Source of the DNA: Trypanosoma brucei
Taxonomy: Eukaryota
Length of the DNA stretch: 64,000 nucleotides
Assembly: GCA_000002445.1 (NCBI GenBank)
Contig: CP000069.1
Coordinates: 1,152,001 to 1,216,000, forward strand
Direction: 5' to 3'
Under the pieces are notes generated by a model that saw only the letters and a list, made by a program, of their open reading frames with translations, had not been told where the DNA came from and did no database searches. The position numbers were made by a program, and so were the translations under genes. The stretch's first letter is position 1, and the number at the start of each line of letters is the position of its first letter. Below, in pieces: positions 4,851 through 26,252 of this stretch.

Positions 4851-6131
4851 CTATTCATTGTACTCTTTCTGCCTGACGTAGTTGGCGAACTTGTGGTCAG
4901 CATCCTTTAACATCTTATTGGATAGACGGCCACGACGACGGTAAGGATTACCCATATCCAACACTAAGCGGTTGACGCCAGGCATCACCTCCTTTTCCCG
5001 TCCAATAGGAGCGGTCAGCTCAAACTTGAAGTCACGATGAACCTGATGAATCGTTGGAGAGTACCGCAGTAGTTCATCTGGCGTTGGCGCGTTCGTGAGG
5101 TGTTGGGCCCGCCGCTTCCAGTGTCCGCGCATCGTATGAATGCGACCAGCGAAGTCTCTCATGTTGAAGAACTTCTTGTCGATCATTTCTTTGCGCTGTT
5201 GGAGCACACGTATGGCACCTTCTACATCCCCAATCTCATTAAAGGTGGTTTCCGCACGCTCCAAGCACTGATCCACCAGTGCAAATGTTCGATCATAGTC
5301 GAACGGGCTAAAGTAAACGAACTTTTCCTCGAAGTTATAGTTAAACCGACGACCAAGGCGAGGCAAAAGCCTTAACATGCGGTGAGACTCGCCCCAGTTG
5401 TGAAAACTATTCACAACCTCCAGCGCCTCTTCGTAGGCTTCAGTTGCTTCCCGTTTCATGCCGAGTGCCTCCCGCGTGATTCCCAGCTCCAGCAGAGCCT
5501 CGCAGATCAACTCAAGAGAAGGACGGGTTGACGCGTCCAACATGCGCAGAACTTCCTCAATATTTGCCAAACTACTTTCCAAGCGGCCCGTTTGACGAAA
5601 CGCAGCTGACAACTTAATCCTTATTCCTATACGCTGCGCGTGATTCTCCGGATATGCATAATTGTACGCCTTCGCAACCACTCCGTAGTGTTCCAATGCC
5701 TCTTGAAACATACCACCTTCCATGTAATAGTCACCCTGCAGCTCCAGTTTGGCCACCTCACCAAGCGGGACATACGGCCGTTCAACCTGTGGTGCTTCCT
5801 TTAGCTGTTGGGTGTTGTCAACGCGCATGACATCAGTGCTGTCAGCATCATCCCACGACACTCCAGGTGTTTTTTCTCCTTTGGAGACGTCCACTTTATT
5901 ACCCTTGTTGCTGCCTCTTTTGGCAGCTGCTTCTAGCTCAGAGCGCTTCTGCAAAATCGCACTAACGCTTACATCTGCTGGTAGGCGCTGCTTCGGTTGC
6001 ACCAGTTGGTTAGGATACAACACACCGGTGTAATAGGAAGTGTAGAGTCGCGTAACCCATCGCCGCTGGCACTGGAGCGGCGCCGAGGAAAATAGTAATG
6101 CTCCCCGAGACGAAAAAGCGTTTCTGGACAT
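4851..6131 (-). CDS. Helical-repeat (TPR-like) protein with an N-terminal mitochondrial-presequence-like segment (426 aa).
   Basis: The listed start at 6140 is GTG. The first ATG is at 6129-6131 and gives MSRNAFSSRGALLFSSAPLQCQRRW (basic, hydroxylated, no acidic residues). The central region has TPR-like A/L/E-rich repeats (EALEHYGVVAKAYNYA, REATEAYEEALEVVNSF). Confidence 0.55.
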   Translation of the reverse strand: MSRNAFSSRGALLFSSAPLQCQRRWVTRLYTSYYTGVLYPNQLVQPKQRLPADVSVSAILQKRSELEAAAKRGSNKGNKVDVSKGEKTPGVSWDDADSTDVMRVDNTQQLKEAPQVERPYVPLGEVAKLELQGDYYMEGGMFQEALEHYGVVAKAYNYAYPENHAQRIGIRIKLSAAFRQTGRLESSLANIEEVLRMLDASTRPSLELICEALLELGITREALGMKREATEAYEEALEVVNSFHNWGESHRMLRLLPRLGRRFNYNFEEKFVYFSPFDYDRTFALVDQCLERAETTFNEIGDVEGAIRVLQQRKEMIDKKFFNMRDFAGRIHTMRGHWKRRAQHLTNAPTPDELLRYSPTIHQVHRDFKFELTAPIGREKEVMPGVNRLVLDMGNPYRRRGRLSNKMLKDADHKFANYVRQKEYNE

Positions 6132-9753: not shown

Positions 9754-11504
9754 AACTTGAGGAATGTACAAATCGTTACACCGTGCTCAGAGTGGACTCT
9801 GCCTTACTCTTGTCACCACTATTATTTTTTTCTACTTTTTGGCTCTTCGTTGCACTTTGGATTCGTCCCCCCTCTTCTTTTCCCTCACTTCTAGTATTTT
9901 ACCCCACTTTTGGGTTGTTATATATATATATATAACACTAGTAAGGTCAGAGGTAGATCCGGTGGTATTCGGTGAGTGTATACAGTGACTCCTTATGCAG
10001 TGATTCAGTTCCTCACTGCACTTTGTTTCCGTGTTTTCCTTAGGTATATTTTTTTTTAGTTTCCCTTTGCTTATTTTTGCGTCTTCCTCAGCTCGGGTTA
10101 CACAGTGAGTATGTATACGTAGTGTTCTGCTGTTGCTATTACTGCCTTATGTGGCTTCTCGCAATGCTGTTTTCAACGAGTACAAAAGCCTTTCACCATC
10201 GAAAAACACACGACAGGCCGTGTGGTGCTCCCACGTTTTTTTCCCTCCCTATTCGGATGTCCTTTTAATTCCCTCCTTTCGTTTTTTTTGTTCTTCACAG
10301 TACCGTTCCCCCAACTTCTCTCCTGATAATAAACTATGAGTTAACAATCCGAACACGACTGCTTCAACAAAGTGAAGGAGAGAGTAAGCACGGATTAAAT
10401 ATGTAAATCCAACACCTTCCCGTCGCTATTATCTTCTCCCTTCCCCCTGTAAGCTCTCTTTGTTGCGGTGAAAATTGTCAGTGACCGAATGCCCGCACAG
10501 AAACGTAACCGTACGTGCAATAAGGCCAGCACAGCTTGGAAATTTTTAAAATATATATATATATATTTTTTTTTTATAACGAAAAATAAATGGGTTGGAT
10601 CCTCCCACGTAACTGAGTAAACTAAATGTAAGAAAAAGAAAATAAAAAACAAAAATGACAGAATTTATACGAAGGTTACGCCACAAGTAGTCAGGTATTT
10701 GAAATACATGTACCAAACAGGAGAAACATAAAGAGGGAGAGAAGATCTCGCTATTGAACAGTTTCAGATAATAAAAATGTAAAGAGTGTAAAAAGGGGTA
10801 AACTAGATTTACTACGCCCCACTACTCGAACCCCTCAACAGAGCGCAAGAGAATAACGATAACATCAACAAAACGAACAAACCGGTTGTCAAAAAACTGA
10901 CCTGCTGCCACCAGTTAGTTAAAGCTCTGCAGTCACATGACATAAAATGTGCGAGCACAAACACAACTGAGAGAAGATAACAACATAACGAATCACAGCT
11001 CCGTTCGAGGGGGCGTATATTCATGTTCACATCCAATCACACAAACTGTACATTTTTACCCAACCAACCAACCAACCAACCCCCACAGCTCACAGATTCT
11101 CATTACCTTAAAAAACAAAAAAAAAATCACAATAAAGAAGAAAAGCAAAACAAAAAAGGAACGAAGAATATAATATATTATTTGCGTTAGAAAAGGAGGT
11201 AAAAAAAATTAGAAAGGAAGTCACATGACGAATACCACCCAGTGAGTTGTTGCCAATGCCCGATTTACAACAAACAAGCAATCAATCAATCAAACAAACA
11301 AACAGAGAACAATCGAGAAAACGAAGGCACGAAATAAGCCACCATATTGAGGACCCAACCCCGAAACAAGCGCCACCGAAAATCTTCTCCCACACAAGAT
11401 TAACGCTTGAAGGCGTAAGAACTCATAGGTGTGCAGGCAGCGCCCCTGCGCATATTTTATCAGTGATTTATCTATGAGCATATTCATCCAACTGTAGCAT
11501 TGGT

Positions 11505-23072: not shown

Positions 23073-23619
23073 TGGTTTATTTGCGTTGATAGAGTTTTAG
23101 TTACTTGTGCGGGAAAATACCTAAAATATATAAGTACGTAAATATATTTTATGTGTGATAAGGTATGCTCAAAAATAATGGCGCACCTTCTTTACTATTG
23201 CTTTCACTAGCGCACGAAAATCCGCCGTTGAGCAAACGAGTATAAAATAATAATAATAGTTAAAAAAAGTAGGGGAAACACATGTATAAGATATCAAACA
23301 TATCCCTTCATACATTCTGTTCAATACCGTTAGCTTGCAGTGTATGAAAACCATCCACCCGTTACACCCGCATGCAAACAAACACGGACCTCTAAACAAA
23401 ATGACCAATAAGTTGACAACAAGTGAAAACGAGGAGAAAATAAAAGGAAAAAAAAAGTGTGGCTGCATTTGTCACTCAACATTGACACATTCCGCTGCAC
23501 ACTCCTGATAAAAGACGACGGGAGGGTTGTTTTTGTTTTTTGTTTTTCCTCCTCTCACCCTCTCAGTGATTGAGCGACAACTGAAGTGGCAGCCCCCTTC
23601 CCCGGCCTAAACGGACCGT

Positions 23620-23778
23620 TTATTTCTTTCCGCCCTTCATTTTCGCAATGGCCTCCTTTTCAGCCTTCTGCTGTTCGCGCATTTTATTACGAAACGCGAC
23701 GTCGTCATCGTCCAACTCTTGCCGATCCTTCTTAGGTGCTTTAAGAGGTTTTTGTTTACCACCTTGACGTGTGGACAT
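23620..23778 (-). CDS. TMA7: TMA7 (translation machinery-associated protein 7) homolog, 52 aa. Not in the ORF track.
   Basis: I translated the reverse complement of 23620-23778 by hand: MSTRQGGKQKPLKAPKKDRQELDDDDVAFRNKMREQQKAEKEAIAKMKGGKK*. This matches the human TMA7 N-terminus [39 protein letters not shown] motif for motif. ATG is at 23776-23778 and TAA at 23620-23622. A purine-rich plus-strand tract at 23868-23915 gives a polypyrimidine tract upstream in the mRNA sense. Confidence 0.8.
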   Translation of the reverse strand: MSTRQGGKQKPLKAPKKDRQELDDDDVAFRNKMREQQKAEKEAIAKMKGGKK

Positions 23779-23867
23779 GGCGAGTGGAGTTGTTGGTTAC
23801 AGCTGGTGTCGTTTGTTTTATTGCTGGTATAAGATGTTCTGCTTGGAACTTTGAGGCTTCGGAGAAA

Positions 23868-23915
23868 CGCACTGGAAAAGATCAGGAGAAGAAAAAAAGA
23901 GAAGAATAAAATATT
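23868..23915 (-). promoter_or_regulatory. Polypyrimidine tract candidate upstream of the TMA7 homolog.
   Basis: The plus strand reads ggaaaagatcaggagaagaaaaaaagagaagaataaaat, which is pyrimidine-rich in the mRNA sense, 90-140 nt upstream of the ATG at 23778. Confidence 0.4.
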
Positions 23916-23971
23916 ATTATATATATATATATTTTTGCTTTTATTAATGATCCCTCCCGCATACACACATA

Positions 23972-23974
<3 letters not shown>

Positions 23975-24012
<38 letters not shown>
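23975..24012. repeat. (AT)19 microsatellite
   Basis: Uninterrupted atatat... run read directly. A second shorter (AT)7 lies at 23929-23942. Confidence 0.95.
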
Positions 24013-24015
<3 letters not shown>

Positions 24016-24422
24016 TACGAATACGAACATGAACACGAATATTTCCACTTCCACACGCAGGCAGAAAAAAAAACACGGAGAGAAAGATAGCAAATGTAAT
24101 AGCTTCTGAGAAGCACATATTCCGGAACCACGCAGTAGCACGCAGCAGTGCGATATTTAAAAAATAATAATAATAATGAAACTGCTGCAAGCTCGGACAT
24201 TTTCACCTCCTACCACCATGGTCTTCACACACAAACACAAATACTCATGCATGTATGGACGAGTTAATATAAGAGAATAAGAATTTTCTATTCTCTCAAA
24301 AATGTTCGCCCAACCGTCGTATCTTATATATAAATATATATATATATATATTATATTATATTCAGGTGAGTCGAAAAAAAAAAAAATGACGCAACGTTCC
24401 GGTGCCAAGTCCTGTCAAGCAA

Positions 24423-24743
24423 TTACAAACTTCCCTTCAAATGGCAAGCGCCGTCAGCTTCGTGAATCTCCAATTTGTACTCCTGCACAGGGCTCAACAC
24501 ACCTGTGAATGGCGTCTCAAGGAAGGAACCATCAGCCTCCACGCGTCGGATGTGTGCCGTCATCGAAAAGGTGGTTGCTTGTACAATTTTTTGCTCCAGT
24601 TTAGCAGTTTCTCCAGGTTTTATTGTAAGGTTCACCTCCTCATCAGCCGCATCAGGAACGGCATAAAAGGCTTTAACCTTTACCTCTTTCGAAGTCAGAT
24701 TCTTCACGAGTGCGGAGTACACATGCGGAGGGGCGCGCACCAT
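24423..24743 (-). CDS. Small hypothetical protein (106 aa). Beta-rich and acidic.
   Basis: ATG at 24741-24743. Sits between two (TA)n-rich intergenic regions with correct orientation. No family recognised. Confidence 0.45.
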   Translation of the reverse strand: MVRAPPHVYSALVKNLTSKEVKVKAFYAVPDAADEEVNLTIKPGETAKLEQKIVQATTFSMTAHIRRVEADGSFLETPFTGVLSPVQEYKLEIHEADGACHLKGSL

Positions 24744-25460: not shown

Positions 25461-26252
25461 TTAAACGACTTGTCCAATAGCCATAAGATAATACCGCTCC
25501 GCTAAAGGCCAGTTACATGCCTTAAAATAGTTTTCAACGTATTGTTTCAACCCTGAAGTCCCGTAGTCTAAAATGTAGGCACTCTCATGAACATTCAGTG
25601 CAAGAAGGGGAATAAGATCGCTAGCGATTGGACATGAACCGTGAGGAAACTCCACCACATCAAAATGCACCCCGGACCATACCAAATACACCCAACCACA
25701 CCGTTCTTGGTGAGAAGCCGCTGTTACCCATACAATTCGGCGGACTTCATCCACTGCATCGGCGGAACCATTAGTTCCGTACTGCAGCTGTAGTGCCTCA
25801 CGTAACCGCGGTGGAGGTGCAGTACCCCATGGGCGCAGAGACTTGTAGAAGAAGCAGTAATTAAAGTGTTCCGACGCCGCAGTGTGGGCTACGGCTTGTG
25901 TAGCGTCAAAAGAAGTCTTCCGTATCACAGTTTCGAGATTGTGTCCCTCAAGTGGTGTGCCTAATGTGTGACGGTTGAGTGTTTCCACAACATCGCGATG
26001 AAAGAGGGAGTATTGCATATCGAACTGATCCTTGGAGAAAAGAGCAGGAATACCGCTCGAAACAGGGTAGTTTAATCGTGGTTGACTGAAAAATCCGGTT
26101 TCCTCTTTTGCTTTGTCAGCCCGGGCCGCAGCAGCCTCCGTCTCACGGAAAACTGCGGTTGCGATATTGGAAGGCATAAAAGTCTCTCCCATCTGAACAG
26201 ACGCGCCCTTTGGGACGTATGCATGATAACTAAGGCGCCGGCACAAACGCAT
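25461..26252 (-). CDS. Fe/Mn-superoxide-dismutase-fold protein with degenerate metal ligands (pseudo-SOD), N-terminal mitochondrial presequence (263 aa). Possibly a mitoribosomal SOD-like subunit.
   Basis: ATG at 26250-26252. SOD family motifs are present but mutated. HFNYCFFYKSL aligns to NHSLFWKNL (His retained). GWVYLVW aligns to GSGWxWL. NVHESAYILDYG aligns to DVWEHAYYLxY, with the Asp ligand changed to Asn and the His ligand to Ser. The first His ligand region (EYHYGKHH in the E. coli Fe-SOD) is QYSLFHRD here. N-terminus is MRLCRRLSYHAYVPKG. Confidence 0.75.
   Translation of the reverse strand: MRLCRRLSYHAYVPKGASVQMGETFMPSNIATAVFRETEAAAARADKAKEETGFFSQPRLNYPVSSGIPALFSKDQFDMQYSLFHRDVVETLNRHTLGTPLEGHNLETVIRKTSFDATQAVAHTAASEHFNYCFFYKSLRPWGTAPPPRLREALQLQYGTNGSADAVDEVRRIVWVTAASHQERCGWVYLVWSGVHFDVVEFPHGSCPIASDLIPLLALNVHESAYILDYGTSGLKQYVENYFKACNWPLAERYYLMAIGQVV

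What the first reader, a model, noticed from the sequence alone, without database searches (positions are those of the whole stretch)
23620..23778. Unannotated 52-aa TMA7 homolog hidden in another frame of a spurious 189-aa ORF
The ORF track misses this gene because it is shorter than 60 aa. The track instead reports a 189-aa ORF (23637..24206) in a different frame that runs through a (TA)n microsatellite. My hand translation of the minus strand from 23778 gives MSTRQGGKQKPLKAPKKDRQELDDDDVAFRNKMREQQKAEKEAIAKMKGGKK. Both the N-terminal motif (MS.R.GGK.KPLK.PKK) and the acidic-then-basic layout match eukaryotic TMA7/CCDC72. A polypyrimidine tract candidate sits 90-140 nt upstream in the mRNA sense. 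Short conserved ORFs like this are often missed in kinetoplastid annotations.
Basis: partly seen in the sequence, partly recalled or inferred. Interest (0 to 1): 0.5.

Follow-up and report, generated by a model that had tools for sequence, protein, structure and literature searches.

The report
Known, annotated T. brucei TMA7 gene
The 52-codon gene is real, conserved and heavily translated, and it is a TMA7 (small ribosome-associated protein) homologue, but it is already annotated as Tb927.6.4010 in the Trypanosoma brucei genome and named TMA7 in UniProt, so it is not a discovery.

Summary
Window 23620-23778 (minus strand) is an ATG-to-TAA ORF that encodes exactly the 52-aa peptide quoted. It scores 58.1 bits against Pfam TMA7 (PF09072, cutoff 27). 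Its substitution pattern against T. cruzi and Leishmania is clearly protein-coding, with 6/7/32 differences at codon positions 1/2/3. It lies upstream of SGT on the same strand in all three lineages. The overlapping 189-aa ORF is spurious.

The headline claim "unannotated" is wrong. The exact protein is deposited as AAZ11960.1 (T. brucei TREU927), between the SGT protein (AAZ11959.1) and the 106-aa protein (AAZ11961.1), and UniRef calls it "Translation machinery associated TMA7". It is gene Tb927.6.4010. Published ribosome profiling lists it among annotated CDSs, with 2110 footprint reads on the CDS against 2 in the 3' region. Published RNA-seq gives about 14.5 mRNAs per cell and a 228-nt 3' UTR.

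Two points remain open. The trypanosomatid protein also lacks the C-terminal GPLxxGGIKKSGKK tail seen in animal and fungal TMA7. Verdict: already known, low interest.

The parts
23620..23778 (-). CDS of Tb927.6.4010, the T. brucei TMA7 orthologue. It has 52 codons plus a TAA stop, with ATG at 23778-23776 and the stop at 23622-23620.
   Evidence: Translation is shown. Pfam PF09072 scores 58.1 bits. The exact sequence matches AAZ11960.1. pS is 0.83-0.97 against pN 0.15-0.17. There are 2110 footprint reads on the CDS against 2 downstream.
23392..23619 (-). 3' UTR (228 nt), ending at the major mapped poly(A) site.
   Evidence: Kolev et al. 2010 Table S13 gives the major poly(A) site as chr6 1175392, which is window 23392, and a 3' UTR of 228 nt. 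The offset of 1,152,000 was verified. I did not read that table's column headers. I inferred them from the arithmetic 1175620 - 1175392 = 228.
23884..23911 (-). Proximal 28-nt polypyrimidine tract, TTTTATTCTTCTCTTTTTTTCTTCTCCT.
   Evidence: It is the longest polypyrimidine tract between the upstream gene and the ATG. There are no spliced-leader read data for it in what I could access.
23872..23873 (-). First AG downstream of the proximal polypyrimidine tract. It is a candidate spliced-leader acceptor and would give a 93-nt 5' UTR.
   Evidence: This is an inference only.
23779..24287 (-). 5' UTR as annotated in genome version 4.2 (listed as 508 nt). It contains four short uORFs, none of them translated.
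   Evidence: Vasquez et al. 2014 supplementary file 6. Footprint density on the UTR against the CDS is 6.1 against 971 rpkm in bloodstream forms and 3.4 against 303 in procyclic forms. The uORF statistics are reproduced from the window.
24288..24289 (-). AG immediately upstream of the annotated 5' UTR start (distal acceptor). A T-rich tract lies at 24389-24373.
23975..24012 (.). (TA)18-19 microsatellite inside the annotated 5' UTR. The spurious 189-aa ORF translates it as IYIYIY.
23637..24206 (-). 189-aa ORF in another frame. It is not a gene.
   Evidence: It has no Pfam hit. tblastn finds similarity only over aa 131-186, where it overlaps the TMA7 CDS (34-37% against 73% in the TMA7 frame), and finds nothing in Leishmania in that frame. 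Its unique part lies in the footprint-poor 5' UTR.

Best explanation
The feature is Tb927.6.4010, the already annotated T. brucei orthologue of the eukaryotic protein TMA7 (translation machinery associated 7, also called CCDC72). It lies in the minus-strand polycistron between Tb927.6.4020 (the 106-aa protein) and Tb927.6.4000 (SGT, also called PEX38). The following are shown by tool results or published data. Its mRNA is present at roughly 14.5 copies per procyclic cell. It is polyadenylated 228 nt after the stop codon. It is translated efficiently in both life-cycle stages, with translation efficiency about 4. Ribosomes terminate cleanly at the TAA. The mode of action is inferred. The product is a 52-residue, lysine-rich protein with no globular fold. 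It has an invariant basic N-terminal segment with no predicted secondary structure (QGGKQKPLKxPK), then an acidic cluster, then one K/E-rich helix. By homology with yeast Tma7 and Arabidopsis TMA7, it most likely binds cytosolic ribosomes through the basic N-terminal segment and helix and modulates the rate of protein synthesis. The overlapping 189-aa ORF is a chance reading frame through the 5' UTR and a (TA)n repeat.
For: The translation is exact. Pfam TMA7 scores 58.1 bits, E = 1.5e-15, against a cutoff of 27. The sequence is identical to AAZ11960.1, CBH11901.1 and RHW72106.1, and UniRef names it TMA7. The accessions AAZ11959, AAZ11960 and AAZ11961 run consecutively across SGT, this gene and the 106-aa gene. 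Twenty close homologues carry 14 invariant columns in the N-terminal motif, and 831 representatives reach E <= 1e-3 in the exhaustive search. Purifying selection is clear: synonymous sites are saturated (pS 0.83-0.97), pN is 0.15-0.17, and codon-position differences are 6/7/32. TMA7 lies upstream of SGT on the same strand in T. cruzi and Leishmania. Ribosome profiling gives 2110 CDS reads against 2 reads in the 3' region, a ribosome release score of 1770, and translation efficiency 4.24 in bloodstream and 4.06 in procyclic forms. RNA-seq gives 14.5 RNAs per cell and a mapped poly(A) site, and the gene is absent from the complete lists of undetected or mis-started ORFs. The AF2 model shows residues 1-23 without secondary structure and a helix over residues 24-49, with mean pLDDT 78.7. 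Yeast and Arabidopsis ribosome association and the yeast deletion phenotype are cited from bioRxiv 10.1101/764316.
Against: I found no direct evidence that the T. brucei protein binds ribosomes. The gene is not in the held supplementary files of the polysome proteomics paper PMC4545788, and no paper in the library mentions TMA7 in trypanosomes in a relevant way. No TMA7 chain exists in the PDB, so the binding site is unknown for any species. The protein lacks the C-terminal GPLxxGGIKKSGKK tail of animal, fungal and plant TMA7: only profile positions 1-48 of 62 are matched. If the tail is functionally important, the mode of action could differ. The true major spliced-leader acceptor is not settled.
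Confidence: 0.93

Rival explanations
1. The 189-aa ORF (23637-24206, minus strand) is the real gene, and the 52-aa frame is a coincidental overlap.
For: It is the longer ORF, and it is the one reported at the default 60-aa threshold.
Against: It has no Pfam family. Cross-species similarity is confined to the overlap with the TMA7 CDS, and it is weaker there (34-37%) than in the TMA7 frame (73%). There is none in Leishmania in that frame. It translates a (TA)18 microsatellite as IYIY repeats. Its unique 5' part has footprint density of 6.1 rpkm against 971 for the TMA7 CDS. The codon-position pattern of 6/7/32 fits the TMA7 frame.
Confidence: 0.01
2. The 52-aa ORF is a genuinely overlooked gene, absent from public annotations.
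For: It falls below common ORF-length cut-offs. Several homologues come only from unannotated assemblies (Logan-only entries).
Against: The exact sequence carries four NCBI accessions, including AAZ11960.1 from T. brucei brucei TREU927, whose neighbours AAZ11959.1 and AAZ11961.1 are the two flanking genes. It also has a UniRef TMA7 name. It has the gene ID Tb927.6.4010 and appears in 2010 and 2014 genome-wide datasets. Orthologues are annotated in T. vivax, T. cruzi, T. rangeli, Strigomonas and Leishmania.
Confidence: 0.01
3. The gene is a true TMA7 descendant, but loss of the C-terminal tail has changed its role in trypanosomatids. It might bind a different ribosomal site or act away from the ribosome.
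For: Profile positions 49-62 are unmatched. All 49-52-aa trypanosomatid-type homologues end in KKK or GGKK, whereas many other representatives keep GPLxxGGIKKSGKK. One 73%-identical relative, P0014, still has a tail.
Against: The N-terminal motif and helix, which are the most conserved parts of the family, are intact. Tail-less forms recur among other representatives (P0028, P0030, P0077, P0126), which suggests the tail is dispensable. Very high translation alongside ribosomal proteins and histones fits a housekeeping translation role.
Confidence: 0.08

Closest known systems
Tb927.6.4010 (GenBank AAZ11960.1, 'hypothetical protein, conserved'; UniRef 'Translation machinery associated TMA7', Trypanosoma brucei)
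   Same: The protein sequence is 100% identical over all 52 residues. The neighbours are the same: AAZ11959.1 is SGT (Tb927.6.4000) and AAZ11961.1 is the 106-aa protein (Tb927.6.4020). Window coordinates map to Tb927_06_v4 with a constant offset of 1,152,000.
   Different: Nothing differs. It is the same gene. GenBank's product name is still 'hypothetical protein, conserved', so only the functional label lags behind the family assignment.
Opisthokont TMA7 / CCDC72 (yeast Tma7, human TMA7; Pfam PF09072)
   Same: It shares the N-terminal MSxRxGGKxKPLKxPKK motif, the acidic D/E cluster followed by AF, and the K/E-rich helix. Identity to the vertebrate-type representative P0152 is 62% over residues 1-29. 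Both are tiny stand-alone proteins.
   Different: It is 52 aa against 64 aa. It lacks the C-terminal GKGPLxxGGIKKSGKK tail and ends in KMKGGKK. Ribosome association has been shown for yeast and Arabidopsis (cited) but not for trypanosomes.
Trypanosomatid TMA7 orthologues (T. vivax, T. cruzi C3747_28g223c, T. rangeli TRSC58_07122, Strigomonas STCU_00546, Leishmania LPMP_302690)
   Same: They are 73-83% identical, 49-52 aa long and tail-less. TMA7 lies upstream of SGT on the same strand in the two lineages examined, T. cruzi and Leishmania.
   Different: T. cruzi carries three tandem copies in a repeat unit of about 4.7 kb. Leishmania has an extra 234-aa gene between TMA7 and SGT. Some gene models, such as the 85-aa T. 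rangeli one, are over-extended at the N-terminus.

Membership tests
TMA7 (Pfam PF09072) | Whole-protein score above the curated Pfam gathering threshold | tested here: met
   58.1 bits against a cutoff of 27, E = 1.5e-15. Residues 3-50 match profile positions 1-48 of 62.
TMA7 (Pfam PF09072) | N-terminal basic signature M-S-x-R-x-G-G-K-x-K-P-L-K-x-P-K-K | tested here: met
   The protein starts MSTRQGGKQKPLKAPKK. In 20 homologues the invariant columns are M1, Q5, G6, G7, K8, Q9, K10, P11, L12, K13, P15 and K16. The same motif recurs in most of the 150 best family representatives.
TMA7 (Pfam PF09072) | Acidic cluster followed by a K/E-rich alpha-helix, in a stand-alone protein of about 50-65 residues with no other domain | tested here: met
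   ELDDDDVAF is followed by a predicted helix over residues 24-49. The protein is 52 aa and the TMA7 match is its only Pfam hit.
TMA7 (Pfam PF09072) | C-terminal GPLxxGGIKKSGKK tail. This is common in animal, fungal and plant members. I treat it as frequent rather than family-defining, because the Pfam threshold is passed without it and tail-less members recur. | tested here: not met
   Profile positions 49-62 are unmatched. The protein ends KMKGGKK. All trypanosomatid-type homologues are tail-less. 39 of the sequences examined carry the tail, and other tail-less forms exist: P0028, P0030, P0077 and P0126.
TMA7 (Pfam PF09072) | Physical association with cytosolic ribosomes, which is the functional basis of the name | not testable with these tools
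   Association is reported for yeast and Arabidopsis (bioRxiv 10.1101/764316). No T. brucei record was found. No TMA7 chain is in the PDB.
Expressed protein-coding gene of the T. brucei minus-strand polycistron | Mature mRNA detected, ribosome footprints confined to the CDS, and purifying selection in this frame | tested here: met
   About 14.5 RNAs per cell and a mapped poly(A) site. Footprints are 2110 on the CDS against 2 in the 3' region, with translation efficiency about 4. Codon-position differences are 6/7/32. The spliced-leader junction itself could not be checked, because the SAS tables held were cut when stored.

The most novel reading that the evidence does not exclude
The most novel reading not excluded is this. 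Kinetoplastids carry a naturally minimal TMA7 that has lost the conserved C-terminal GPLxxGGIKKSGKK tail, and the loss reflects an altered contact with the unusual trypanosomatid ribosome. That would make Tb927.6.4010 a useful minimal core for locating where TMA7 binds, a site still unknown in any organism.
Probability: 0.12. Interest if true: 0.3.

Novelty: already known. Interest (0 to 1): 0.07.

Why it matters
It matters little as a discovery. The gene, its family assignment and its expression are all in public databases and published datasets. The practical lesson concerns method: a 60-aa ORF cut-off hides real, highly translated small genes and promotes spurious longer ORFs in other frames. 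A check against existing annotation should come before any claim that a gene is unannotated. A minor residual point is that GenBank still labels the product 'hypothetical protein, conserved' although it clearly belongs to the TMA7 family. TMA7 itself also remains mechanistically uncharacterised, with no solved structure in any species.

Tried and rejected
1. phmmer of the 52-aa peptide and of the human-type TMA7 sequence against the PDB gave no hits at E <= 1. The human-type probe was later confirmed identical to the core of P0152. There is therefore no structural template.

2. A literature search for TMA7 plus Trypanosoma found nothing relevant. Gene IDs searched in main texts turned up only the neighbour Tb927.6.4000.

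3. I could not obtain spliced-leader acceptor data for Tb927.6.4010:
- The held supplements of Nilsson 2010 do not contain the gene ID.
- No Siegel 2010 supplements are held.
- The Kolev 2010 SAS tables were cut when stored.
- No supplements of the 2026 Kozak paper are held.
- The Parsons 2015 re-annotation paper did not turn up in the search.

4. The held polysome proteomics supplements (PMC4545788) do not list the gene. This is uninformative for a 52-aa K/R-rich protein.

5. The Fleischer 2006 paper is not held, so yeast function is cited second-hand.

6. The source organism of the tailed relative P0014 could not be resolved, because only the assembly accession GCA_041447075.1 was returned.

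7. An Rfam scan of the whole window found nothing.

8. I did not run a fold search, because a single helix plus an unstructured segment gives meaningless matches.

9. The 189-aa ORF was considered as a real gene and rejected.

Full report
**1. The observation**

The minus strand of window 23620-23778 is an ATG-to-TAA ORF of 52 codons. The ORF listing reports it only when the minimum length is lowered below the default of 60 aa.

The 189-aa ORF at 23637-24206 (minus strand, GTG start) overlaps it in another frame. That ORF reads through a (TA)18-19 microsatellite at 23975-24012.

A 52-codon ORF alone is not remarkable, since there are 53 ORFs of at least 40 aa in this 6-kb stretch. What makes this one significant is homology and conservation.

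**2. What it is**

- **Family.** The peptide matches Pfam TMA7 (PF09072) at 58.1 bits, E = 1.5e-15, against a curated cutoff of 27. The 189-aa ORF matches nothing.
- **Close homologues.** The word-indexed protein search returned 20 homologues of 49-85 aa. All carry PF09072, and those that carry a name come from T. vivax, T. cruzi, T. rangeli, Strigomonas and Leishmania. The N-terminal QGGKQKPLKxPK block is invariant among them.
- **Wider family.** An exhaustive profile search of 1.84 billion representatives found 831 proteins at E <= 1e-3. Most of the 150 best listed show the MSxRxGGKxKPLKxPKK start.
- **Coding constraint.** Against T. cruzi and Leishmania, synonymous sites are saturated (pS 0.83-0.97) while pN is only 0.15-0.17. 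Differences fall 6/7/32 and 9/5/30 on codon positions 1/2/3. This is the signature of purifying selection in exactly this frame.
- **The 189-aa frame.** It finds similarity only across its overlap with the TMA7 CDS (aa 131-186, 34-37% against 73% in the TMA7 frame). It finds nothing in Leishmania in that frame.
- **Synteny.** The order in the window (minus strand) is SOD-like 263-aa gene, 106-aa gene, TMA7, SGT. T. cruzi shows SOD-like, TMA7, SGT. Leishmania shows an 88-aa gene, TMA7, a 234-aa gene, then SGT.

**3. It is already annotated and already shown to be expressed**

An exact-sequence look-up shows the 52-aa protein is in NCBI as AAZ11960.1, CBH11901.1, XP_011774186.1 (T. b. gambiense) and RHW72106.1. 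UniRef names it [quoted passage not shown]. The flanking SGT and the 106-aa protein are AAZ11959.1 and AAZ11961.1, so the three accessions are consecutive. SGT is Tb927.6.4000, recently renamed PEX38.

The supplementary tables of Vasquez et al. 2014 (PMC3973304) list Tb927.6.4010, "hypothetical protein, conserved", at Tb927_06_v4:1175620-1176287(-), with a 159-nt CDS. The window therefore corresponds to chr6 1152001-1216000. I verified this in two ways:
- The stop codon of Tb927.6.4020 falls at the predicted position.
- The published uORF statistics (4 uORFs, longest 236 nt, mean 110 nt) reproduce exactly from the window sequence.

In the "annotated CDSs" table the gene has 2110 footprint reads on the CDS and 2 in the putative 3' UTR. 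Its ribosome release score of 1770 is the seventh row of the part of the table I read, next to histones and ribosomal proteins.

| Stage | Footprints on CDS (rpkm) | Footprints on 5' UTR (rpkm) | Translation efficiency |
|---|---|---|---|
| Bloodstream form | 971 | 6.1 | 4.24 |
| Procyclic form | 303 | 3.4 | 4.06 |

None of the uORFs is translated. This independently rules out translation of the unique part of the 189-aa ORF.

Kolev et al. 2010 (PMC2936537) report about 14.5 RNAs per cell. Their major poly(A) site is at chr6 1175392, which is window 23392 and gives a 228-nt 3' UTR. I inferred the columns of that table from the arithmetic, not from its header. The gene is absent from their complete lists of untranscribed ORFs and of mis-annotated start codons.

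The claim "unannotated" fails.

**4. How it most likely works**

The following steps are shown:
- The gene is transcribed, polyadenylated and efficiently translated in both life-cycle stages.
- Ribosomes terminate cleanly at the TAA.
- The start context ATGTCC carries the +5C that a 2026 study links to strong initiation in abundant T. brucei proteins (PMC13069569). This is supportive but low-weight evidence.

The AF2 model from the 20-sequence alignment gives residues 1-23 without secondary structure and a single helix over residues 24-49. Mean pLDDT is 78.7, and there is no globular fold.

The rest is inferred. By homology, the protein associates with cytosolic ribosomes and tunes protein synthesis:
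- Yeast Tma7 was identified as ribosome-associated, and its deletion altered the protein synthesis rate.
- Arabidopsis TMA7 co-purifies with 80S ribosomes.
- That source states that no further function had been defined (bioRxiv 10.1101/764316).

No TMA7 chain is in the PDB, so the binding site is unknown in any organism. I found no trypanosome-specific experimental data on the protein.

**5. Two residual open points**

*Which splice acceptor is used.* The v4.2 annotation starts the 5' UTR at window 24287. That is just after an AG at 24289-24288 and downstream of a T-rich tract at 24389-24373, and it gives 508 nt. RNA density over the "5' UTR" is 153 against 229 rpkm for the CDS in bloodstream forms, and 117 against 75 in procyclic forms. 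Both sites could be used, or much of that RNA could be the 3' UTR of Tb927.6.4020. I could not obtain spliced-leader counts.

*The missing tail.* The trypanosomatid proteins lack the C-terminal GPLxxGGIKKSGKK tail seen in many other representatives, including the vertebrate-type sequence. Only profile positions 1-48 of 62 are matched. A 63-aa relative that is 73% identical still has a tail. Tail-less forms also occur outside the trypanosomatid cluster. I therefore read the tail as a dispensable, recurrently lost extension and not as a family-defining feature.

**6. Comparison with what is known, and verdict**

This is the same gene as Tb927.6.4010 / AAZ11960.1, and it is a bona fide TMA7-family member by every sequence criterion tested. 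Novelty: already known. Interest is low.

The useful outcomes are these:
- The 189-aa ORF is shown to be spurious.
- The claim "unannotated" is corrected.
- The GenBank product name still lags behind the family assignment.

Noticed in passing
L002:320-478, 5001-5159, 9774-9932 (T. cruzi GCA_015033655.1, CM026638.1): T. cruzi carries three tandem TMA7 copies in a repeat unit of about 4.7 kb that also contains a Sod_Fe_C-like gene. Adjacent copies encode identical proteins and differ by one synonymous substitution.
   Followed up: partly
A 2025 preprint (10.1101/2025.11.03.686288) renames it PEX38, an essential Euglenozoa-specific peroxin derived from a GET-pathway factor.
   Followed up: partly
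window 25461-26252 (-): This 263-aa protein has degenerate Fe/Mn superoxide dismutase domains. Sod_Fe_C scores 43 bits, and Sod_Fe_N scores 20 bits, below its cutoff of 27. It is probably a non-catalytic SOD-like protein. It keeps its position upstream of TMA7 in T. cruzi.
   Followed up: no
window 24423-24743 (-): The 106-aa gene is Tb927.6.4020 (AAZ11961.1). It has no Pfam family above threshold, but it is translated, with a ribosome release score of 142 in Vasquez et al. 2014. It remains a conserved hypothetical protein.
   Followed up: no
window 23392-23459: The published major poly(A) site of Tb927.6.4010 (window 23392) coincides with the G of the first AG (23393-23392) after a polypyrimidine tract at 23459-23425. 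That AG may be a spliced-leader acceptor for the downstream SGT/PEX38 gene, so 3' end formation and trans-splicing would map to essentially the same nucleotide.
   Followed up: no
window 23637-24200 (-): The published uORF statistics for this 5' UTR (4 uORFs, longest 236 nt, mean 110 nt) reproduce only if the 564-nt ATG-initiated version of the 189-aa ORF is left out. That is so even though the stated uORF definition allows overlap with the main CDS.
   Followed up: yes
L003/L004:6139-6845 (Leishmania): Leishmania has an additional 234-aa gene with no Pfam hit between TMA7 and SGT. It is absent from the T. brucei and T. cruzi loci.
   Followed up: no
P0008 (T. rangeli TRSC58_07122, 85 aa), P0016, P0017: Several public TMA7 gene models are over-extended at the N-terminus by 19-36 residues upstream of the conserved MSSRQGGK start. 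They are probably start-codon mis-annotations.
   Followed up: no
window 1-64000: No Rfam family reaches its gathering score anywhere in the 64-kb window on either strand.
   Followed up: yes
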